Source of the DNA: Bacteroidales bacterium
GTDB lineage: Bacteria; Bacteroidota; Bacteroidia; Bacteroidales; TTA-H9
NCBI GenBank assembly: GCA_035411425.1
Contig: DAONSX010000001.1
Span: 1,678-65,677, forward strand
Length of the DNA stretch: 64,000 bases
Direction of reading: 5' to 3'
Shown here: positions 1 through 8,739 of the stretch, piece after piece
Position numbering within the stretch: position 1 is the first letter of the stretch
Layout: each line of letters starts with the position of its first letter
The notes under the pieces: model-generated
Databases searched by the model: none
What the model was told of the DNA's origin: nothing
The model's input: the letters and a program-made list of their open reading frames with translations, nothing else
Position numbers and translations under genes: made by a program

Positions 1-3000
1 TGCACGGTGGCAATTATTTGTGAACCATCAGGCGGAAGCTGATATAATGGCTGTTTGTGACGCAAGCGATTTACAGCATCCCAAAACTTGACCATCTCAA
101 ATTTTAGATTCCCTTCTACATCTTTGTAAATAATGCAATGATGATTATTTCTGGGATCAACATAGCAATTTATATTTGGCTTTAATTTAACAGCATTTCC
201 CTTATATTCAAAAATTCTAACTGTATATACAGGAACAGGATCACCTCCTTTGCGATTTGGAAGCCGTATAGCAGGATTTTTATCCTTATCGAAAAAGAAG
301 CCATTTGGGATATTATAAGGTTTTGAAATATCGATATTAAATACATTTTGAAGTCGGTTTTCAATTAGCTTCTTAATAGTAGTATCAACGATTTTCGCTA
401 CGTGTTTATGATCTTTTATTTCGGTAATATTACATCTTACATGATATTGTTGTGGTTTAATACCTGGTAGATATTTAGCAGCCGATACTATTTTACCTTC
501 TCCCTGGTCAAGAATATAACCTCCATAGAATGTATCTTTGTGAAGTTGCCCTTTTACCGAATATCCTTTGGAAACATAAGTATCATGATTTTTACGAATT
601 CTCTTATAAACAGGCACCAAAACTCTATAGTTAGTTCGATAAGATACCAAAATTTTTGAAATTGCTTCTTTTACAGCATTTTGAAAGTGTGGGTTAGGTT
701 GTTCGAATTTGGGTTTTGGAGCCAAATTACGTTGTTTATTTTTGAGATTACCAAAATAAGTAGATAGTTTTTGATAGTAACTTGTAGTAGCAGAAGCAAT
801 TACAATGGCGTCAATGGCATGATGACGCTGGTCTTCACGATTTTTCTTCGGATCAATAATAATTTCTCCCGTCTCGGTATCCACCCTAATCAAACTTTCA
901 ATTATTTTTTCGTTATTATTTTTATCGATAATGGGCTTAGGATTTTCAATAGGTTGAAAATTAATGATTTCCTGTATTTTAAAATAAATAAAGTAACGCC
1001 CTGGTGCAACATCGGCTTTTAATTTCCAATTGTAGTCCATATCGGGACAAAATATGCCCTGGCTATCCACAGTTCCATTTAGTGTATAATAGTTTTCAGG
1101 AGGACGAGGTAAATTAAGTGCCGGTAAAAAATCAGCATTATTTACATCAAAGTCTAATAATGCAGTATAAAACCCGTTGATTAGTTGAGCTTCACAGGAA
1201 TAAATGGATGATATAAATTTTTGATTTGAAACTCTACCTTGGATGCTTATTTTATTTTCATTCTTTCTATTATCATTAATATCATTTTGTTTGATTTCAG
1301 CTTTGATTACAGGAATTATAGCCCAATAATATCCATCTTCTATTATTTTGTTCGTATTGAAATTAATTCCATGACTTTCGTTAATGAATCTTTTTTTCTT
1401 GAGATTACCCTTAATAATTATTACATTTTCGCTAATTTGGGGTTGAGGAGTAAACCTTGGAATGAATTCCTGTGCAGCCTGAGCTTTTATAAAGGCCCAA
1501 TATTTCCCAGTTTCAAAGCCATTTGCAGGAATTTTTAGTGAGGCATAGTATTTACTATCTGATTCAAAATAGAATTTATTCCCAGTCTCTTTTTTTATTT
1601 CACCAGGTATGGCTAACTCATTATCCATTGGTATGGGTTTGAAATTTATTTTTGGGATGGCTTTTTTAACATGATTGTTTTCATCAACGATAAGATAATG
1701 AATAGTTGGTTCGCTTTCGTTTATATTTAAATCATTCAAGGGAATATCGGTTATAGGTTCACTAAGAATATCGTTTAGTCCCCATAATCGGCGTAAATCG
1801 GCTATAAGTTGGCCAGGGAATGACCTAACGTCGTCGCATATTTCCCTTAAGATTTGTACTGATTTTTTGCTGATATAACGTGTGTCGTTGAGTTGTCGTT
1901 GAATAAAATCGTCAAGCATAGCGGGTTTTTTTGAAGTAAAACGCCTTGCTTTTTTATAGGGCAAGATTTGGAAGACTCTTTGCTCGATTTCTTCCCATGA
2001 ATCAGCATTCCATAAAGATTTACTACTGTTTTTTAAATAAAACTGATAAGGTGTCAATTCACCTTTCGAACGATTGAAATTGGCTTCACATAGAGTTTTA
2101 TTTCCGAATGAATCGTCTAAACTAACGGAATAGGGTATAATATGTTCAATTTGGAAAAAATTATGAGGCCCAAGCAAATCGGAAAGGCGAATGGTTTTAC
2201 CCGTATAGGGACAGATTACGATACCATTTTTCTGTTCGATTTCACTATAAAGTAGATACTTAATGATGTTATCACGTGAAGGTTTTAAGCCTGCTTCAAT
2301 GATTCTTTCGCGAGCTTCCTTATTTTTTTGTTCATTAATTGCATTTTCTTTTCTGATTTCCTGTCGCCTTTTTTTATTGTTTTTCAAATCGCGTCCAACC
2401 TCAACATGGATGCGATCAAAACAGAAATCTGGCCCAAATTCGGGCATACTACGATATTTTTTCAGTAGATAATTTACGAGCCGGCGCATTTCATTTAGCC
2501 CAATTTGGACAAGTGGATTTCTTAAATTCTCGACAGGTGAAATGTAATCTCCCTTTTTCTCTGGACCTACCTCCCGACTGGGATGGTATAATTTTAAAAA
2601 GGCTTTATCATTAGGGTTAAATCCAAAATTATTAACAGTGCTCGAAAGGTATTCTTTTATATTCTGAATAATTTCGCCTTCATGATATTTTTTGCCATTG
2701 CAAAGATCTTTGATAAATTGTTCTATATCACTATGATAATCTTTAAAATATTCCCATCTGCTGCCAAAAGTGTTTTTGATCCCTCCAAGCAAGACGGCTT
2801 GTTGAAAAATAAATCCCTTTTCAAGGAAAGGCAGTATGTTATGAATAGCTTTTAATGAGATTGATGCATACCCATCTTCAAGTGTAATTTTTGCGCTTTT
2901 TTGGGCTTTTTCTTCAGTGAAATGGTATTTTTTTATGAGCCGTTGGGTCAAAAGTTCTTCATCTTCAAAAAACATGAAATCATGCCATATTTCATGTTTA

Positions 3001-4355
3001 TTCTGCACCCATATCTCAGTAGGAAACAAACTTTTTAATTTTTTTATAGTAGGACATCCAGAAACTTTTTGGTCTGCATCGTAATTGAAATATTCATTTT
3101 GCAGCTTTAAGGCATCAATAATAACTTTAAAGTCGAAAACTTTATCCTGATATGATATTACATTTAAAACAGTTTGCCGCTGACTAGCATCAAGCGGTTG
3201 TTCCTTTCGACCGTATCGTATATTATTTATCAATTGCCATGCTCTATATAGTTCGAAATCAGGATGAGAAATTGGACAAGGGGTAGGCCCGGTTTCTATC
3301 CATTTGTTGGTAGTTTTATCAAACATTATTCTCTTTTCGAAAGTACATTTTGACAAAAGATGTTTTTGTGATCTTAATGGCCGTTGCCAGAATAAAAGAC
3401 TATCCTGACTTCTATATAATATTTCATGAGTTTCGTCATTAATTTCGATTCGTCCCCCAAAAAGAGTTTTTAAGGAGATCTGTTGTGCAACTTTTATGGT
3501 TTTCCCAGTAATAGTAACATTCTCAATGCCATATTGCAAGTAAATTTTATTGATTCTTTGCTTATTTCTTTCAGAATCATTATTCCCAGAAAGATGAAAG
3601 GATTTGAATATCGTAACAGTTTTATCATTTAATCCTAAATGTGGAGCTTGTTTTTCCCAAATAGCATGAAATTCCTTAACATACATTTCTCTTAAGGTAT
3701 ATCGGTTACGGGCTCTTAGCGGACGTCTATTCTCATCAGTTCTGTAGATATAAGTCTGATGCTCGGGAAGAATCATTTCATACAAAGTAGTTCCAAGAGT
3801 TTTATTATAACCAATTTCTTTCTCGGTCTCGAGTATACCAATGGTATTATTTTCCCCTTGATAAATCTTTCCTGAATCTTTTCCTTTTCGACTACTGTAA
3901 AAACCCCTTCTCTGAATAAAATGATAAAAGATTCTTCCGAGTTGTTCTAAGCTTAAATCTTCTTCTAATGCTTTTTTCCGCAATGCGTAAGGATTCATTT
4001 TCAACCATTCTATAAACTCAGGATCATTTGGAAACTTTCTTCCATCCGATTTCAATTCATTGTTCCAATTTTTCCATTTTTTCAATGAGTTTAATGATAA
4101 GGGGCACATTTTAAGAGGGATCAATGTCTCAAGTAATTTGATCTTACTTAATCTTTTTCTGTAATAATGTCTCCTGAGTTGTCTTTTTTCTCTTCTCTGT
4201 GCATTTTTTGAAGTCTCTTTTTCCCCCTGTCCTAAATTTTCTACTCCTTCAGGGAAAATTCTAACCCCGCAGTCAATAATTGACGCTTTTTCATCATCTA
4301 CAACTGCCCATCCAATGCTATTGACTCCTAAATCGAGTCCAAGGATTTTGCTCAT
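1..4355 (-). CDS. cas9: CRISPR-associated endonuclease Cas9, type II (II-C-like, long Bacteroidota form); partial, C-terminus beyond left edge (>=1451 aa visible)
   Basis: Hand translation of the minus-strand frame from ATG 4355 to nt 3 gives 1451 codons with no stop. Motifs in order: RuvC-I MSKILGLDLGVNSIGWAVV (D8); Arg-rich bridge helix QRREKRQLRRHYYRKR; LGRIFYHFIQRRGF; LFWQRPLRSQK; RuvC-II DRIHVEVGRD (E652); HNH CPYTGK..QIEHIIPYSVSLDDSFGNKTLCEANFNRSKG (H738); RQLNDTRYISK; RuvC-III RHHAIDAIVIA (H1178, D1182). It is missing from the ORF track because its stop codon lies left of the window. Confidence 0.93.
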   Translation of the reverse strand, partial: MSKILGLDLGVNSIGWAVVDDEKASIIDCGVRIFPEGVENLGQGEKETSKNAQRREKRQLRRHYYRKRLSKIKLLETLIPLKMCPLSLNSLKKWKNWNNELKSDGRKFPNDPEFIEWLKMNPYALRKKALEEDLSLEQLGRIFYHFIQRRGFYSSRKGKDSGKIYQGENNTIGILETEKEIGYNKTLGTTLYEMILPEHQTYIYRTDENRRPLRARNRYTLREMYVKEFHAIWEKQAPHLGLNDKTVTIFKSFHLSGNNDSERNKQRINKIYLQYGIENVTITGKTIKVAQQISLKTLFGGRIEINDETHEILYRSQDSLLFWQRPLRSQKHLLSKCTFEKRIMFDKTTNKWIETGPTPCPISHPDFELYRAWQLINNIRYGRKEQPLDASQRQTVLNVISYQDKVFDFKVIIDALKLQNEYFNYDADQKVSGCPTIKKLKSLFPTEIWVQNKHEIWHDFMFFEDEELLTQRLIKKYHFTEEKAQKSAKITLEDGYASISLKAIHNILPFLEKGFIFQQAVLLGGIKNTFGSRWEYFKDYHSDIEQFIKDLCNGKKYHEGEIIQNIKEYLSSTVNNFGFNPNDKAFLKLYHPSREVGPEKKGDYISPVENLRNPLVQIGLNEMRRLVNYLLKKYRSMPEFGPDFCFDRIHVEVGRDLKNNKKRRQEIRKENAINEQKNKEARERIIEAGLKPSRDNIIKYLLYSEIEQKNGIVICPYTGKTIRLSDLLGPHNFFQIEHIIPYSVSLDDSFGNKTLCEANFNRSKGELTPYQFYLKNSSKSLWNADSWEEIEQRVFQILPYKKARRFTSKKPAMLDDFIQRQLNDTRYISKKSVQILREICDDVRSFPGQLIADLRRLWGLNDILSEPITDIPLNDLNINESEPTIHYLIVDENNHVKKAIPKINFKPIPMDNELAIPGEIKKETGNKFYFESDSKYYASLKIPANGFETGKYWAFIKAQAAQEFIPRFTPQPQISENVIIIKGNLKKKRFINESHGINFNTNKIIEDGYYWAIIPVIKAEIKQNDINDNRKNENKISIQGRVSNQKFISSIYSCEAQLINGFYTALLDFDVNNADFLPALNLPRPPENYYTLNGTVDSQGIFCPDMDYNWKLKADVAPGRYFIYFKIQEIINFQPIENPKPIIDKNNNEKIIESLIRVDTETGEIIIDPKKNREDQRHHAIDAIVIASATTSYYQKLSTYFGNLKNKQRNLAPKPKFEQPNPHFQNAVKEAISKILVSYRTNYRVLVPVYKRIRKNHDTYVSKGYSVKGQLHKDTFYGGYILDQGEGKIVSAAKYLPGIKPQQYHVRCNITEIKDHKHVAKIVDTTIKKLIENRLQNVFNIDISKPYNIPNGFFFDKDKNPAIRLPNRKGGDPVPVYTVRIFEYKGNAVKLKPNINCYVDPRNNHHCIIYKDVEGNLKFEMVKFWDAVNRLRHKQPLYQLPPDGSQIIATV
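845..1775 (-). other. Insertion of about 300 aa within the Cas9 RuvC-III region (between LRRLWGL and NREDQRHHAIDA)
   Basis: W858-G-L is encoded at nt 1784-1776 and H1178 at nt 824-822, so about 315 residues separate motifs that are roughly 10 residues apart in NmeCas9 and CjCas9 as I recall them. The frame is continuous, so this is not an IS or intein-like disruption. It contains three related modules: GKYWAFIKAQ...VIIIKGNL, GYYWAIIPVI...KISIQGRV, GRYFIYFKIQ...KIIESLIRV. Confidence 0.7.
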
Positions 4356-4427: not shown

Positions 4428-4492
4428 TTTTCCTTAGAAGATGGGTTAAAATTAAATATTTTTTATGAAAGTGTTGCATAATAAAAAAGTTG

Positions 4493-4500
4493 TATCTTTG
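4493..4500 (+). promoter_or_regulatory. Candidate Bacteroidota -7 box (TATCTTTG) inside the anti-repeat element, possible promoter for a short tracrRNA form
   Basis: Exact TAnnTTTG match. It would place the transcription start near 4507, giving an RNA of about 86 nt that ends at the T7 tract. Confidence 0.4.
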
Positions 4501-4567
4501 TTGACGAAGATTATTCCAATCTTATCTTATCACAACAAGGCTATATGCCGAAGGACTTAGTCCTATG

Positions 4568-4592
4568 CCCCTGCTTCGGTAGGGGTTTTTTT
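4568..4592 (+). terminator. Rho-independent terminator of the tracrRNA
   Basis: A 7-bp stem CCCCTGC/GTAGGGG (one G-U pair) closes a TTCG tetraloop and is followed by seven T. Confidence 0.8.
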
Positions 4593-4784: not shown

Positions 4785-5579
4785 ATGTTAATAGATAAGG
4801 ATGAACCAATTTGCTGTTATTTCGAGAATCTTTCGAGATTTGACGGGGAAATTCTGCATTTTGTTTCCACACGAAGGTTTCTAAAAGATCAGCAGTTTTC
4901 CATTTCCTTCAATGGTTCTTTGTCGAAAGATAGAGTAAGAGTAAACCGAAAAGTCCTTTTCTCGAAATTTGGACTCGATGTGAGTAGTTCTGTGTTTACC
5001 ACACAGGTTCATGGAAACAAGGTGGAGCGCATTTCAATAAAAGAGAAGGGCAGGGGTGTCAACGAAGTTTTAAAAACCTGCCTTGGCAGCGATGGCATGA
5101 TAACGCAACATCAGGAGATTTGTCTGGTTATTCAAATGGCTGATTGCGTTCCCCTGTTATTTTTTGATCCTATAAAAAAGGTTATAGCTACTGCCCACGC
5201 TGGTTGGAGAGGAACTGTAATGAAAATTGGCGCAAAAGTTATCGAAGAGTTTCGTAATGTTTACGATTCGGACCCGGCAGATATTTTGGCAGGCATTGGG
5301 CCATCCATCGGGCCATGTTGCTATGAAGTAGGGAATGAGGTCATAAGCAAAGTGGAAGAAGCCTTTCGTGATACCAAAGGCATTTTGCTGAATCATCCCA
5401 AATTTTCTCGGCCCGTATTCGACTTATGGGAAGCCAATCGAAGAATTTTGATAGAAAAAGGCATAAATCCCCGCAATATCGAAATGGCGAACCTTTGCAC
5501 GCGTTGTCATTCAGATATGTTTTTCTCGGCTCGTGCTGGCGATGAAGGCCGTTTTGGTTCTTTCATTATGTTGAAATAA
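4785..5579 (+). CDS. pgeF: Peptidoglycan editing factor PgeF / YfiH (polyphenol-oxidase-like, DUF152) family protein
   Basis: 264-aa ORF with the family motifs HAGWRGT, GPSIGPCCYEVG and CTRCHSDMFFSARA. Confidence 0.85.
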   Translation: MLIDKDEPICCYFENLSRFDGEILHFVSTRRFLKDQQFSISFNGSLSKDRVRVNRKVLFSKFGLDVSSSVFTTQVHGNKVERISIKEKGRGVNEVLKTCLGSDGMITQHQEICLVIQMADCVPLLFFDPIKKVIATAHAGWRGTVMKIGAKVIEEFRNVYDSDPADILAGIGPSIGPCCYEVGNEVISKVEEAFRDTKGILLNHPKFSRPVFDLWEANRRILIEKGINPRNIEMANLCTRCHSDMFFSARAGDEGRFGSFIMLK

Positions 5580-5633
5580 ATATTTCAATCAAGGGAAAAC
5601 AGCAGAATGTTTAGACCGAGTGATGAAAATCTC

Positions 5634-5641
5634 TATTTTTG
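5634..5641 (+). promoter_or_regulatory. Candidate -7 box TATTTTTG
   Basis: TAnnTTTG match 41 nt upstream of the ATG at 5682. Confidence 0.4.
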
Positions 5642-5681
5642 CAACATGAACCAACATTTTACAAACCCAAATTAATAAGCG

Positions 5682-6779
5682 ATGAGAAAAATTTTACTTT
5701 CTGTATTATTGATGTCTTTGGGAGGCTGGTTATCAGCTCAGAGTCTTCAGCTTAAAACCTTGGATGGAAAGTTGATTGCCAATGATGCTACTCTTTATTG
5801 GGGTGGATTGCCCACCGAATATATGGTGGCCAGAATTTTGGTAAGCAATACTTCTACCGAGGCAAAGAATGTTTTCGTGAAGAAGTATGAGGAATTTGCC
5901 GCCAAGGATTCTACTGCAACTTTTTGCTGGGGAGCTTGTTTCCCATGGTTTGTCAACGTAAGTCCCGAAGGCATTGTGATTGATGCTGGAGGCACTTCTA
6001 CTGATTTTACGGCCGATTATGATGCCGGTGGCGTACTGGGTCATACACGGCTGAAGTTTACTTTTTTTGTGGAAAATAATCCCAACGACAGCGTTTCGTT
6101 TCGTGTAGAATTTTCGCCTTCCTACCTTAGTCTGAGAAACACAGAAGATTCCATTCCTACTGCTTCTGTTCTGAATGTTGTGGGCTCATATACGGAGGTG
6201 ATACAATATGATTTGATATTGACCAATCACAGCAAAGAAACGAAGAATGTGAGCATGCACAAGATTCATCTGTCGGTGATTGAGGGTACTGAGATGTATT
6301 TTTGTTGGGGAGATTGTTATCCACCCGATGTATTTGAACTTCCCGAACCCATGGTTATGGCTGCTGGAGAATCATCTCAAGGGCTGAGTGTGGATTATGA
6401 CCCAAAATCGCATTCGGGAACATCAACCATAACCTATGTATTTTATGATTTTGATCATCCCGCTGATTCGGTTTGGGTTGATTTTGCCTTCGATGGTCAG
6501 GCCGCCGGAATCGATTATCTCGCCTCGGATATTTTGAAGATTTCTTACAGAGCTTTTAGTCATGAACTTTTCATCGAATGGGAAAACGAAATTTCATATG
6601 GCAGTAAAAATCTTCAAGTAATTGATATGAGCGGAAAGGTTGTTTTTACAAAAACCTTATCCAGCAATAGCAGGCAGCAAACTATTACACTTCCTTATCT
6701 TTCTCAGGGCATATATATGATTGTAATAAATTTGCCAGACGGAATGGTTTATCGAAATAAATTCCTTATTAGTCGTTAA
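5682..6779 (+). CDS. Secreted protein with a T9SS C-terminal sorting domain and two tandem homologous modules
   Basis: Signal peptide MRKILLSVLLMSLGGWLSAQS. Two modules of about 125 aa each contain FCWGxC(F/Y)P...DYD. The C-terminal ~80 aa (LQVIDMSGKVVFTKTL..GIYMIVINLPDGMVYRNKFLISR) resemble Por/T9SS sorting domains. Confidence 0.6.
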   Translation: MRKILLSVLLMSLGGWLSAQSLQLKTLDGKLIANDATLYWGGLPTEYMVARILVSNTSTEAKNVFVKKYEEFAAKDSTATFCWGACFPWFVNVSPEGIVIDAGGTSTDFTADYDAGGVLGHTRLKFTFFVENNPNDSVSFRVEFSPSYLSLRNTEDSIPTASVLNVVGSYTEVIQYDLILTNHSKETKNVSMHKIHLSVIEGTEMYFCWGDCYPPDVFELPEPMVMAAGESSQGLSVDYDPKSHSGTSTITYVFYDFDHPADSVWVDFAFDGQAAGIDYLASDILKISYRAFSHELFIEWENEISYGSKNLQVIDMSGKVVFTKTLSSNSRQQTITLPYLSQGIYMIVINLPDGMVYRNKFLISR

Positions 6780-6806
6780 ATAATTTTTTATCGTATATTT
6801 TTAAGG

Positions 6807-6847
6807 CTGCCGGAGTTTTAAATTTTTAAATATTCGGCAGTTTTTTT
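6807..6847 (+). terminator. Probable intrinsic terminator
   Basis: Stem CTGCCGGA/TTCGGCAG (6807-6814 / 6833-6840) followed by T7 (6841-6847), downstream of the 5682-6779 gene. The loop is rather long at 18 nt. Confidence 0.5.
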
Positions 6848-6878
6848 GTTTTTTTAAGGAAACTTCTTTCAAAAAAAT

Positions 6879-6886
6879 TATTTTTG
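6879..6886 (+). promoter_or_regulatory. Candidate -7 box TATTTTTG
   Basis: TAnnTTTG match 33 nt upstream of the ATG at 6919. Confidence 0.4.
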
Positions 6887-6918
6887 CTTTAGGATATAAA
6901 TTTTGATTGGTATAAAAC

Positions 6919-7542
6919 ATGAAACCACAGGGAAAAGCGAGTCGGGAAGAGATTTTGGAAGCCGCCCGCAAGGTTTTTATAGAGAATGGTTACGATGGGG
7001 CCCGCATGCAGGAAATTGCCGATGAGGCAGGGGTAAATAAAGCCCTTATTCATTATTATTTTCGGTCGAAGGAAGAACTTTTTCAGGAAGTTTTTTTAGA
7101 GGCCTTTATTAAGGTAGTTCCCTCGGTGATGGTGATTTTAAACTCCGACGAGCCATTGTTCAAGAAAATCGAACAGTTTGTTTCGAAATATCTCGACACT
7201 TTGAATGAAAATCCATTGATTCCGGGATTTATACTTCACGAACTTGCTCATGGCCGCCAGCATATCGATGCCTTGATCAGAGGGACAGGACTAAATCCTC
7301 AGTTTTTTATCAATCAAATATACAGAGAAATTGACGCGGGGAAAATCAAAAACTGCGATCCAACCCAGCTCATCATTAATATCCTTTCCTTGTGTATTTT
7401 TCCTTTTGTTGCTCAGCCTATTTTGAAGGGTGTATTCTTTCGTAACCGGGAAGATGATTACGCGCGATTTATGCTGGAACGCAAGTCGGATGTTGTCAGG
7501 TTTATCATTGCCTCCATCCGTAAACAGCAGGAAGAAAGTTGA
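6919..7542 (+). CDS. TetR/AcrR family transcriptional regulator
   Basis: N-terminal HTH signature GYDGARMQEIADEAGVNKALIHYYFRSKEELF; 207 aa. Confidence 0.85.
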   Translation: MKPQGKASREEILEAARKVFIENGYDGARMQEIADEAGVNKALIHYYFRSKEELFQEVFLEAFIKVVPSVMVILNSDEPLFKKIEQFVSKYLDTLNENPLIPGFILHELAHGRQHIDALIRGTGLNPQFFINQIYREIDAGKIKNCDPTQLIINILSLCIFPFVAQPILKGVFFRNREDDYARFMLERKSDVVRFIIASIRKQQEES

Positions 7543-7614
7543 TTTGAGTTTTTTGGCCGATGTTTCCTCTAAAGAGTTATTCTTTGGGAGTGAGTTGTCG
7601 ATAAAAACCTGTTA

Positions 7615-8739
7615 TTATTTAGGGGCTTTGAGCAATAACCAGATAGCTATAATTCCAAAAAAGATATTAGGAAGCCAGGTAGCCAGCATGGGCGCCATAT
7701 TTCCATAAACCGAGAATTGAGTAGTGATCTGCATGAACAGAATATAAGTAAAAGTAATGCCAATACCGATACCCAGGTGCATACCTGTTCCTCCTCTAAC
7801 TTTTCTGCTCGACAGTGCCATACCAATCAATGTAAGTATGATGGCCGATATAGGTTCGGCTATACGTTTGTGCATCTCCGTCTCGTAATATTTTATCGTA
7901 CTGCTTCCTTTGAGTTTTTCTCTCTCGATGAACGCCTTCAACTCATTGAAATTCATTATCTTCATGTCTTCCTTGTCCACTATGATTTCTGTGGGGCGAA
8001 GATTGAGAGTAGTGTCCTTTTGGCTTCCAAATACCAGGCTTTGCTCAAAGGTAGCTGTATCGATAAAGCGTTCGGTGTAATTGATGATGTGCCATTTCGA
8101 TTTTATTGAATCCCATTTTATCTGATCGCTCATGAGTTTGTAGCTGAGTTTACTGTTTTCTATTCTTTCGATGGTAAAGCGGTAACCGTTTTTTCTGGCA
8201 TTGTCCCATGATTCGAAGTAAACGAATACACCGGGTTCGATTTGTAAGTGAAGATTGAGGGATTTGCTTCGGAGAGGATTCTTGATATATTGTTTTTCGA
8301 AGTCTCTAAGCTTGATGTTTGTATGGGGAATGAGGAAATTAGAGAAATAGAGTGTAAGAATGACGAGGAATGTTGCAGAGATCAAATATGGTTTGAGCAG
8401 TCGAAAGAAATTGATTCCGCTACTGAGCATTGCAATGATTTCGGAGCGTTCGGCAAGTCGTGATGTAAAAAAAATGACGGCAATAAAGGTGAAGAGCGAA
8501 CTGAAAAGATTGATAAAATAGGGAATGAAATTCAGGTAATAATCGAAGATGATAGCTCGCAGAGGTGCTCGTCGGGTTAAGAAATCATCGATTTTTTCGG
8601 AAACATCGAAAACGACGACGATAATGATGAGCAGGCCAATAGAATAGAAAAATGTTCCGAGGAATTTTCGGATAATATAACGATCGATTACGGTGAGTCG
8701 GAATGATATAAAATTTTTCCTCATGAATATGGGATACAA
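7615..8739 (-). CDS. LptF/LptG (YjgP/YjgQ) family LPS export permease
   Basis: 374-aa membrane protein with N-terminal TM helices, a large central soluble loop and C-terminal TM helices, typical of the family. LptF versus LptG is not resolved. Confidence 0.75.
   Translation of the reverse strand: MYPIFMRKNFISFRLTVIDRYIIRKFLGTFFYSIGLLIIIVVVFDVSEKIDDFLTRRAPLRAIIFDYYLNFIPYFINLFSSLFTFIAVIFFTSRLAERSEIIAMLSSGINFFRLLKPYLISATFLVILTLYFSNFLIPHTNIKLRDFEKQYIKNPLRSKSLNLHLQIEPGVFVYFESWDNARKNGYRFTIERIENSKLSYKLMSDQIKWDSIKSKWHIINYTERFIDTATFEQSLVFGSQKDTTLNLRPTEIIVDKEDMKIMNFNELKAFIEREKLKGSSTIKYYETEMHKRIAEPISAIILTLIGMALSSRKVRGGTGMHLGIGIGITFTYILFMQITTQFSVYGNMAPMLATWLPNIFFGIIAIWLLLKAPK

What the first reader, a model, noticed from the sequence alone, without database searches (positions are those of the whole stretch)
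845..1775. Insertion of about 300 aa with a three-fold internal repeat inside the RuvC-III region of Cas9
In the Cas9 sequences I remember (NmeCas9 ..GFWGLRKVRAENDRHHALDA.., CjCas9 ..HTWGFSAKDRNNHLHHAIDA..), the WG(L/F) motif and the catalytic HHAxDA motif are about ten residues apart. Here LRRLWGL (W858) and NREDQRHHAIDA (H1178) are about 315 residues apart, and the frame is continuous. The intervening sequence is rich in aromatic and beta-branched residues. It contains three related units visible by eye. The first is PANGFETGKYWAFIKAQAAQEF...ENVIIIKGNL. The second is NKIIEDGYYWAIIPVIKAEIKQ...NKISIQGRV. The third is KADVAPGRYFIYFKIQEIINFQ...EKIIESLIRV. The common pattern is G-x-Y-(W/F)-x-hydrophobic-hydrophobic, followed about 25-30 aa later by I-x-I-x-G/L-x-(L/V). 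An extra domain grafted next to the RuvC active site could affect non-target-strand handling, DNA unwinding, partner recruitment or anti-CRISPR susceptibility. I cannot tell from memory whether other long Bacteroidota Cas9 proteins share it or whether it has been structurally described.
Basis: partly seen in the sequence, partly recalled or inferred. Interest (0 to 1): 0.72.

Follow-up and report, generated by a model that had tools for sequence, protein, structure and literature searches.

The report
Five-repeat beta domain inside Cas9 RuvC
A large group of Bacteroidota Cas9 enzymes, including this one, carries a 309-residue, five-repeat all-beta domain with no match among solved structures, spliced in eight residues before a catalytic histidine of the RuvC nuclease; no solved Cas9 has it and its function is untested.

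Summary
The insertion is real. The cas9 gene lies on the minus strand (Met1 at 4355, truncated by the window start). Residues 862-1170 (window 846-1772) sit between two positions that are adjacent in GeoCas9 (N710/K711). They split the Pfam RuvC_III model, eight residues before the HHAxDA catalytic motif.

The repeat is five-fold, not three-fold. There are five tandem units of about 56 aa, with motif (D/N)GKYW, then about 30 aa, then h-h-h-x-G-x-V-x-x-G-x-F. A profile self-alignment gives a four-step ladder (P 1e-31 to 2e-4).

All 188 full-length relatives examined keep the anchor spacing of about 300-350 residues, and 181 show all five units. They come from Bacteroidales, Marinilabiliales, Flavobacteriaceae, Weeksellaceae and Marinisomatota or Chlorobi MAGs. 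An exhaustive profile search of 1.84 billion proteins found the domain only in Cas9 (38 clusters).

AlphaFold2 gives a confident all-beta model (pLDDT 90.9, pTM 0.78). It has no Foldseek match in PDB or BFVD, and no Pfam, NCBIfam or PDB sequence match. CbCas9, the only long (>1,400 aa) type II-C Cas9 among the PDB sequence matches, has about 40 aa at this site.

Function is inferred only. The most likely role is a rigid accessory module at the rim of the non-target-strand groove. This is a new variant of a known kind.

The parts
3..4355 (-). cas9 coding sequence, residues 1-1451, cut off by the window start. The full protein is 1543 aa, judged from database fragment P0126, which is 100% identical over residues 522-1451 and has 92 further residues.
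   Evidence: Open frame. NCBIfam TIGR01865 cas_Csn1 at 494.5 bits, cut-off 100. Pfam HNH_4 and RuvC_III. PDB Cas9 hits down to E 4e-42. P0126.
846..1772 (-). The insertion: residues 862-1170 (309 aa), made of a 16-aa linker and five tandem beta units.
   Evidence: Query 861 aligns to GeoCas9 710 and query 1171 to GeoCas9 711. AF2 pLDDT 90.9, pTM 0.78, all-beta. The same strands appear in the 852-aa context model.
1584..1724 (-). Unit 0 (residues 878-924), the most degenerate unit: HYLIVDE...ELAIPGEIKK.
   Evidence: Unit HMM E 6e-8. hhalign U0-U1 P 1e-11 and U0-U3 P 3e-12.
1374..1514 (-). Unit 1 (residues 948-994): GKYWAFIKAQ...VIIIKGNLKKKRF.
   Evidence: Unit HMM E 3e-11. hhalign U1-U3 P 1.5e-16. 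Smith-Waterman z 7.3 against U2.
1200..1343 (-). Unit 2 (residues 1005-1052): EDGYYWAIIPV...KISIQGRVSNQKF.
1035..1196 (-). Unit 3 (residues 1054-1107): NGFYTALLDFD...YTLNGTVDSQGIF. It is consistently acidic (family mean charge -7.2).
   Evidence: Unit HMM E 9e-6. hhalign U2-U3 P 9e-14 and U3-U4 P 7e-14. Charge.
858..1022 (-). Unit 4 (residues 1112-1166): PGRYFIYFKIQ...KIIESLIRVDTETGEIII. Its C-terminal strand (consensus EGNIWVDKxTGEIKFDPKKNR) is the best-conserved part of the insertion and leads directly into the catalytic helix.
   Evidence: Conservation 0.44-0.66. E1164 is acidic in 100% and D1168 in 99% of relatives.
1773..1958 (-). N-terminal half of RuvC-III (residues about 800-861), ending in the anchor LRRLWGLN.
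   Evidence: Aligned to GeoCas9 up to residue 710. R..WG is present in all 120 closest relatives.
807..827 (-). RuvC-III catalytic motif RHHAIDA (residues 1177-1183).
   Evidence: Aligned to GeoCas9 HHAVDA. R, H, H, A and D are invariant in 121 sequences.
2046..2213 (-). HNH nuclease motif (residues 715-770, including H738).
   Evidence: Pfam HNH_4 E 8.6e-19.
4489..4592 (+). Candidate tracrRNA, divergent from cas9. It has a repeat-like or anti-repeat element (GTTGT...ACAAC), a nexus-like AAGGCTATATGCC, two hairpins, and a GC stem followed by T7.
   Evidence: Sequence read. RNA fold -31.2 kcal/mol, z -3.15. The ends resemble the 36-nt repeats of related loci. No Rfam hit. The window's own CRISPR array lies outside the window, so pairing could not be checked.

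Best explanation
Shown. This type II-C Cas9 carries a lineage-specific accessory domain. It consists of five tandem copies of a beta unit of about 56 aa, and the copies are homologous to one another (profile comparison), so they most probably arose by serial duplication. The domain is inserted in the RuvC-III loop between the W-G-L strand and the helix that carries the catalytic His and Asp. It is predicted with high confidence to be a single rigid all-beta module. It has no detectable relative in solved structures or curated families, and it occurs only in Cas9. It has been kept at constant size (five units, about 300 aa) across a broad Bacteroidota/FCB clade whose members sit in complete cas9-cas1-cas2-CRISPR loci, so it is under purifying selection as part of a working enzyme.

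Inferred. The entry and exit points lie in the loop that in SpCas9 holds R976 and H982. From memory, these are residues of the positively charged non-target-strand groove between RuvC and HNH. The module therefore most likely projects from the rim of that groove and acts in cis as an extra DNA-handling surface. Its mildly basic units 1-2 would contact the displaced non-target strand or the PAM-distal duplex, stabilising the R-loop and feeding the strand to RuvC. The acidic unit 3 would face away from the DNA or repel it.
For: The insertion is clean and the anchors are homologous; Pfam RuvC_III is split. There are five homologous units. The AF2 model of residues 845-1190 has pLDDT 90.9 and pTM 0.78 and is all-beta. 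The same secondary structure, with pLDDT about 90 for most of the insertion, appears in the 852-aa context model, pTM 0.67. Five units are present in 128 of 135 and in 68 of 68 full-length relatives, with anchor spacing of about 310-351 residues; the second set was not used to train the unit HMM. The domain was found only in Cas9 or Cas9 fragments among 1.84 billion representative proteins. Related loci have 11-37-repeat CRISPR arrays and cas1-cas2. The catalytic motifs are intact in the query. The charge is polarised between units: U1 +1.7, U2 +3.4, U3 -7.2. The C-terminal junction strand is the best-conserved part, which fits rigid coupling to the catalytic helix.
Against: There is no functional evidence of any kind. 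The domain as a whole is net acidic (mean -5.6, against +49 for the rest of the protein), which argues against a general DNA-wrapping surface. Conserved positions are mostly Gly, Tyr, Trp, Pro and Phe, that is, structural. Conserved basic residues are few and are not arranged as an obvious repeated phosphate-binding motif. I could not inspect model coordinates, so the orientation of the domain relative to the RuvC groove is unknown. The placement of the insertion loop on the non-target-strand groove rests on my memory of SpCas9, not on a test here.
Confidence: 0.4

Rival explanations
1. The domain is a protein-docking platform. The rigid beta array would recruit a partner in trans (Cas1-Cas2 during PAM-dependent spacer selection, a host repair or replication factor, or a second Cas9) rather than touching DNA.
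For: The domain is net acidic with polarised charge, on an otherwise very basic protein. The repeat architecture offers a large, regular surface. CbCas9 shows that type II-C Cas9 can carry dedicated partner-binding elements: its CTH domain binds PcrIIC1 (PMC13153721).
Against: No conserved extra gene accompanies the insertion-bearing cas9. L004 is a minimal cas9-cas1-cas2-array locus, L008 is cas9-array-cas2-cas1, and the gene upstream in the window looks like a housekeeping gene. Surface residues are poorly conserved, at about 30% identity against 53% for the N-terminal part, which is unusual for a conserved interface.
Confidence: 0.22
2. The domain is a shield or decoy against anti-CRISPRs. 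A bulky, fast-evolving appendage near the nuclease lobe would block or divert phage inhibitors.
For: The insertion evolves faster than the rest of the protein (30% vs 53% and 46% identity), while the fold-determining residues are kept. It sits between the HNH and RuvC regions; from my own knowledge, several type II-C Acrs target HNH.
Against: Lower conservation is equally expected for any peripheral domain. The unit number and length are almost invariant, unlike typical arms-race modules. No Acr is known for this clade.
Confidence: 0.1
3. The domain is a structurally tolerated passenger with no specific activity. A duplicated beta-hairpin expansion at a permissive loop became entrenched because its C-terminal strand now supports the catalytic helix.
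For: From my own knowledge, Cas9 tolerates large domain insertions at surface loops; engineered Nme2Cas9 insertions are an example (PMC10874451). Conserved positions are structural. CbCas9 already has about 40 aa at the same loop, which suggests a permissive site.
Against: About 930 nt have been kept, with five units and constant length, across orders and even phyla of the FCB group in at least 181 sequences. That is hard to reconcile with neutrality in bacterial genomes, which tend to lose DNA that is not under selection.
Confidence: 0.15
4. It is not a true insertion: the anchors are wrong, or it is an annotation or assembly artefact, or it is a known Cas9 domain.
For: None found.
Against: The frame is continuous. 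HMMER aligns both flanks to adjacent GeoCas9 residues. All 188 full-length relatives, from independent assemblies, keep the segment. No Cas9 structure or curated family matches it. It has no similarity to the rest of Cas9.
Confidence: 0.02

Closest known systems
Compact type II-C Cas9 with solved structures (GeoCas9/ThermoCas9 9AR4 and 8JTJ; Nme1Cas9 6JDQ; HpaCas9 8HNT)
   Same: RuvC-I/II/III, HNH, bridge helix and overall domain order are shared. These are the best sequence matches in PDB (E 4e-42 to 1e-33), and the flanks match structurally. The locus type is also the same: tracrRNA, cas9, cas1, cas2 and an array in relatives.
   Different: They have 0 residues where this protein has 309 (GeoCas9 710/711). 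This protein also has about 145 more residues before the HNH domain.
CbCas9 (Chryseobacterium, 1442 aa; PDB 8IYQ and 8WR4), the PcrIIC1-associated type II-C Cas9
   Same: It is a long type II-C Cas9; I know it to be from Chryseobacterium (Bacteroidota) from my own knowledge. It is the best structural match of the 600-1451 model (E 1.4e-14). It also has extra residues at the same RuvC-III loop.
   Different: It has only about 40 residues at the site (query 868 aligns to chain 986; query 1171 to chain 1026). The insertion profile does not match it at E <= 10, and Foldseek with the insertion model does not find it. Its extra length lies elsewhere.
HNH domain in Cas9/IscB, and the Nuc/TNB (target-strand-loading) domain in Cas12: domains inserted into the RuvC fold
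   Same: The principle is the same: a whole domain nested in a loop of the split RuvC fold of an RNA-guided nuclease (established knowledge; PMC10910872, for HNH in IsrB/IscB).
   Different: The insertion point differs: it lies inside RuvC-III, after HNH. The fold differs, and no nuclease or zinc motif is visible. There is no sequence or structure relation.
Flavobacterium columnare type II-C system (in vivo adaptation and interference; PMC5524643, PMC8092290)
   Same: Its locus layout (cas9, then the array, then cas1/cas2 in the opposite direction) and its 36-bp repeats with a GTTGT end match the F. orientale locus L008, whose Cas9 carries the five-unit insertion.
   Different: I could not obtain the F. 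columnare Cas9 sequence, so I have not verified that it has the insertion.
Repeat-built beta architectures (beta-propellers, GyrA-CTD beta-pinwheel, cell-wall/choline-binding hairpin repeats)
   Same: Tandem units of about 50 aa with three to five beta strands. The G-K-Y-W/Y motif is reminiscent of the GW/YYF hairpin repeats (resemblance from memory only).
   Different: There is no Pfam repeat-family hit. No Foldseek hit to any such structure has TM > 0.13. Strands of up to 17 residues are unlike propeller blades.

Membership tests
Type II-C Cas9 (whole protein) | RuvC-I, RuvC-II and RuvC-III motifs with an HNH domain nested between RuvC-II and RuvC-III | tested here: met
   TIGR01865 at 494.5 bits, cut-off 100. 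Pfam HNH_4 and RuvC_III. Motifs GLDLG (D8), IHVEVGRDL (E652), QIEH (H738) and RHHAIDA are present.
Type II-C Cas9 (whole protein) | Locus with cas1, cas2 and a CRISPR array, and without csn2 or cas4 | not testable with these tools
   The 3' end of cas9 and everything beyond it lie outside the window, and the window holds no array. Relatives do meet the feature: L004 has cas9, then 296-aa and 112-aa ORFs with the size and position of cas1 and cas2, then an array. L008 has cas9, an array, and 109-aa and 303-aa ORFs on the opposite strand. I inferred cas1 and cas2 from size and position only.
Type II-C Cas9 (whole protein) | tracrRNA encoded next to cas9 with an anti-repeat complementary to the CRISPR repeat | tested here: inconclusive
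   The candidate at 4489-4592 (+) has a nexus-like motif, hairpins and a terminator. The cognate repeat is not in the window, so pairing could not be tested. There is no Rfam hit.
Known Cas9 domains (REC, BH, WED, PI, HNH, RuvC) as the identity of the insertion | Sequence similarity to a curated domain model or to any solved Cas9 chain | tested here: not met
   Pfam and NCBIfam gave only sub-threshold noise. phmmer and the 22-sequence profile against PDB gave no hit at E <= 10. hhalign against the rest of the same Cas9 family gave P >= 0.019.
Known Cas9 domains (REC, BH, WED, PI, HNH, RuvC) as the identity of the insertion | Fold similarity to a solved structure | tested here: not met
   Foldseek of the pLDDT-90.9 model: best E 0.052 and TM <= 0.13 in PDB; best E 0.033 in BFVD. 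AlphaFold DB was not available.
CbCas9-type (PcrIIC1-associated) long type II-C Cas9 | The same RuvC-III insertion | tested here: not met
   CbCas9 has about 40 aa at the site, against 309 here. The insertion profile does not match it.
CbCas9-type (PcrIIC1-associated) long type II-C Cas9 | C-terminal CTH helix and an adjacent pcrIIC1 (PIN-domain) gene | not tested
   The C-terminus and the downstream genes lie outside the window. L004 shows no extra gene between cas9 and cas1.
Tandem-repeat domain (the insertion itself) | Units significantly similar to one another, head to tail, with a regular period | tested here: met
   Five units with starts 49-70 residues apart (mean 58). All ten unit pairs give hhalign P <= 3e-6, against > 0.02 for controls. 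Self-alignment ladder. Within the single sequence, four of the ten pairs reach z >= 3.4.
Beta-propeller, beta-pinwheel or cell-wall-binding repeat families | A match to the family's Pfam repeat model or to its fold | tested here: not met
   No such Pfam hit at E <= 10. No Foldseek match.

The most novel reading that the evidence does not exclude
The five-repeat module is a previously undescribed protein fold and family that exists only inside Cas9. It would give this Bacteroidota/FCB clade a mechanistic property that compact type II-C enzymes lack, for example active capture or threading of the displaced non-target strand into RuvC (changing cut position, end trimming or R-loop stability), or recruitment of a partner. 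It would then be a natural precedent for a functional domain inlaid at the RuvC-III loop.
Probability: 0.3. Interest if true: 0.7.

Novelty: new variant of a known kind. Interest (0 to 1): 0.55.

Why it matters
Cas9 structural biology rests on a handful of orthologues, and none of them has this domain. A confidently folded module of about 300 aa, found only in Cas9 and placed eight residues from a RuvC catalytic histidine, is carried by at least 188 sequenced Cas9 proteins. They include cultured Flavobacterium, Kaistella, Bizionia and Gelidibacter species. This is an unexplored piece of Cas9 mechanism. If the domain handles the non-target strand or recruits partners, it would explain why this clade is about 450 aa larger than Nme/GeoCas9. 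It would also mark a naturally validated site for inlaying effector domains such as deaminases next to the displaced strand. If it is dispensable, deleting it gives a straightforward way to shrink these enzymes. Either way, the domain deserves a family definition, because it is absent from Pfam and NCBIfam.

Tried and rejected
- phmmer of the insertion alone against the 5.8-billion-protein collection found nothing at E <= 1e-3. This was a sensitivity failure (word prefilter plus about 30% identity), not absence: the full-length query and the exhaustive profile search found the relatives.
- The look-up of encoding contigs for P0126, the fragment identical to this protein, found no record. The downstream cas1, cas2 and array of this genome were therefore not recovered.
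- The CbCas9 Nature paper is not in the library, so I compared CbCas9 through HMMER coordinates only.
- Literature searches found no description of a RuvC-III repeat insertion in Cas9 (papers read). This covers the held open-access library only.
- A beta-propeller or beta-pinwheel was considered because of the five units of roughly four strands. I rejected it because Foldseek finds no such structure and the strands are up to 17 residues long.
- Origin by duplication of another Cas9 segment (WED or PI beta strands) was rejected by hhalign.
- A foreign or mobile origin is not suggested by composition: GC 0.313 against 0.343 for the rest of cas9, and GC3 lies within the range of the flanks.
I did not search a sub-fragment, because Foldseek alignment is local and the whole-domain query already covers that case.
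Full report
**Where the feature is**

The window begins inside a cas9 gene on the minus strand. One open frame of 1453 codons runs from window 4361 down to 3. Met1 is at 4355-4353, and residue n starts at 4355-3(n-1). The gene runs off the window start. A database fragment (P0126) is 100% identical over residues 522-1451 and continues for 92 more residues, so the full protein has 1543 aa.

The protein is a Cas9. NCBIfam TIGR01865 scores 494.5 bits against a cut-off of 100. Pfam finds HNH_4 and RuvC_III. The best PDB sequence matches are type II-C enzymes: GeoCas9/ThermoCas9 at E 4e-42, then Nme1Cas9 and HpaCas9. The catalytic motifs are intact: GLDLG, IHVEVGRDL, QIEH and RHHAIDA.

**Is it an insertion?**

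Yes. HMMER aligns query 597-861 to GeoCas9 452-710 and query 1171-1294 to GeoCas9 711-838. Residues 862-1170, 309 aa at window 846-1772, therefore lie between two residues that are adjacent in GeoCas9. Pfam RuvC_III is split at about profile position 75/76.

CbCas9 (PDB 8IYQ, 1442 aa) is the only long (>1,400 aa) type II-C Cas9 among the PDB sequence matches. It aligns query 868 to chain 986 and query 1171 to chain 1026. It therefore has only about 40 residues at this site.

**The repeat is five-fold, not three-fold**

The consensus of 121 aligned relatives shows the motif (D/N)GKYW-h-K, followed about 30 aa later by h-h-h-x-G-x-V-x-x-G-x-F. The motif appears four times clearly and a fifth time in degenerate form at the N-terminus.

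- Profile-profile comparison of the five unit sub-alignments gives probabilities of 88-98.7% and P from 3e-6 to 1.5e-16 for all ten pairs. Thirty control comparisons with other Cas9 segments give P > 0.02.
- A profile self-alignment gives the ladder expected of a five-fold tandem repeat. A shift of one unit aligns 194 columns (P 1e-31), two units 129 columns (5e-17), three units 92 columns (9e-13) and four units 34 columns (2e-4).
- A unit HMM places the units at residues 878-924, 948-994, 1005-1052, 1054-1107 and 1112-1166.
- In the single sequence, only some pairs exceed chance: U1-U2 z 7.3, U1-U4 z 5.1, U2-U3 z 3.7 and U0-U1 z 3.4.

The composition claim is only partly right. Ile, Asn and Pro are enriched, but aromatic residues, Val and Thr are not. 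The insertion shows no similarity to the rest of Cas9.

**Spread**

All 120 closest relatives of the full-length query are 1342-1601 aa long and 43-49% identical. In every one with both motifs intact, the anchors are spaced about 297-351 residues apart. The insertion is less conserved than its flanks: 30% mean identity, against 53% for the N-terminal part and 46% for the C-terminal part.

The unit HMM finds five units in 128 of 135 full-length proteins. It also finds five in all 68 further relatives retrieved with the Flavobacterium orientale Cas9, which were not used to train it; their spacing is 312-323.

Named sources include Bacteroidales, Prolixibacteraceae, Marinilabiliales, Gaoshiqia, Mangrovibacterium, Carboxylicivirga, Saccharicrinis, Flavobacterium orientale, F. 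piscis and F. marginilacus, Kaistella flava, Halpernia humi, Bizionia, Gelidibacter, Lutibacter, and MAGs labelled Chlorobi, Neomarinimicrobiota and, once, Acidaminococcaceae.

An exhaustive HMMER search with a 22-sequence insertion profile against 1.84 billion representative proteins found only 38 clusters. Every one is a Cas9 or a Cas9 fragment. The domain is therefore specific to Cas9 and to one clade. A non-Cas9 protein carrying a single diverged unit could have been missed at that database size.

**Locus context**

Related loci are complete type II-C systems. L004 has cas9 (1517 aa), then 296-aa and 112-aa ORFs with the size and position of cas1 and cas2, then at least 37 repeats. L008 (F. 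orientale) has cas9, about 35 repeats, and 109-aa and 303-aa ORFs on the opposite strand. Repeats are 36 nt (GTTGTGGTTTGAT...) and spacers 30 nt. I inferred cas1 and cas2 from size and position only.

The L008 layout and its 36-bp repeats match what is published for the active F. columnare type II-C system (PMC5524643; PMC8092290). I could not check the F. columnare Cas9 sequence itself.

In the window, a candidate tracrRNA lies upstream of cas9 and divergent from it, at 4489-4592 on the plus strand. The window holds no array.

**Fold**

AlphaFold2 on residues 845-1190 with a 121-sequence alignment gives mean pLDDT 90.9 and pTM 0.78. The insertion is entirely beta, each unit contributes three to five strands, and some strands are up to 17 residues long. 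In an 852-residue context model (residues 600-1451; pLDDT 84.0, pTM 0.67), the insertion keeps the same strands and a pLDDT of about 90 over most of its length.

Foldseek with the domain model finds nothing in PDB (best E 0.052, TM <= 0.13) or in BFVD (best E 0.033). The context model hits Cas9 structures through its flanks, with CbCas9 8WR4 best at E 1.4e-14. No Pfam, NCBIfam or PDB sequence match covers the insertion. AlphaFold DB was not available and I could not inspect coordinates. The accurate wording is therefore "no detectable similarity to solved structures", not "proven new fold".

**Clues to function**

- The rest of the protein is strongly basic (mean net charge +49), while the insertion is slightly acidic (mean -5.6) and polarised: U1 +1.7, U2 +3.4, U3 -7.2, U4 -2.4.
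- Conserved positions are mainly Gly, Tyr, Trp, Pro and Phe, that is, residues that determine the fold.
- The best-conserved stretch is the last strand, EGNIWVDKxTGEIKFDPKKNR, which leads directly into the catalytic helix.
- From my own knowledge, the equivalent SpCas9 loop (K974-H983) contributes R976 and H982 to the positively charged non-target-strand groove between RuvC and HNH, and H983/D986 are catalytic. A domain leaving and re-entering the chain here should sit on the rim of that groove.

I therefore favour a cis-acting DNA-handling or R-loop-stabilising role (confidence about 0.4). The rivals are a protein-docking platform (0.22), an entrenched passenger (0.15) and an anti-CRISPR shield (0.10). 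None of these has been tested.

**Comparison with what is known**

The protein is a type II-C Cas9. Membership is met for the motifs, untestable in the window for the cas1-cas2-array part, and met in relatives. The insertion is not a member of any known domain family that I could test. In principle it resembles other domains nested in RuvC, such as HNH in IscB/Cas9 and Nuc/TNB in Cas12, but it is unrelated to them in sequence, fold and insertion point.

I found no description of it in the held literature. The CbCas9 paper is not held.

**Verdict**

The interpretation as an extra domain next to the RuvC site is supported, but its effect is unknown. I rate it a new variant of a known kind, with interest 0.55.

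Noticed in passing
window 4489-4592 (+): A candidate tracrRNA lies divergent from cas9. It has a 48-nt element that starts with GTTGT and ends with ACAAC, like the 36-nt repeats of related loci. This is followed by AAGGCTATATGCC (nexus-like), a GGACTTAGTCC hairpin and a CCCCTGCTTCGGTAGGGG stem with a T7 terminator. The fold energy is -31.2 kcal/mol (z -3.15). It is not in Rfam.
   Followed up: partly
window 1-5 (start of window): cas9 is cut by the window edge. Database fragment P0126 is 100% identical over residues 522-1451 and supplies 92 further C-terminal residues, giving a full length of 1543 aa. cas1, cas2 and the CRISPR array must lie beyond the window start.
   Followed up: partly
P0024 (1562 aa), insertion region about residues 930-980: One relative has an anchor spacing of 351 residues instead of about 315. 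It carries an extra KKYWAKIKL...NNYF segment between units 0 and 1. This looks like a partial sixth unit and so is evidence of continuing unit duplication.
   Followed up: partly
L003 (Acidaminococcaceae MAG), L014 and L016 (Neomarinimicrobiota MAGs), P0211 (Chlorobi MAG): Cas9 proteins with the full insertion occur in bins assigned outside Bacteroidota. This points to horizontal transfer within and beyond the FCB group, or to mis-binning of short contigs (L003 is a 7.3-kb contig).
   Followed up: no
L002 6342-9965 and 10675-12881: In the Saccharicrinis MAG, the cas9 ORF is only 1207 aa from its first start codon, so the gene may have a frameshift or a sequencing error. Three extra ORFs of 214-227 aa lie between cas9 and the cas1-like ORF.
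   Followed up: no
L008 5114-5200, 12546-13074, 14755-14826: In Flavobacterium orientale, 15-nt tandem repeats (ACCTGTCCGTACNNG and related units) flank the CRISPR array and the cas1/cas2 genes.
   Followed up: no
CbCas9, PDB 8IYQ, chain residues about 986-1026: CbCas9 has about 40 extra residues at exactly the loop where this clade has 309 and GeoCas9 has none. This loop may be a recurrent hotspot for insertions in Bacteroidota Cas9.
   Followed up: partly
window 4785-8739: The genes upstream of cas9 look like housekeeping genes and fit a Bacteroidota chromosome, judged by eye only. They are a 264-aa ORF with an HAGWRG motif (laccase-domain/PgeF-like), a 365-aa secreted protein whose C-terminus resembles a type IX secretion sorting domain, a TetR-like regulator and an LptF/G-like permease. 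No accessory cas gene is on this side.
   Followed up: no
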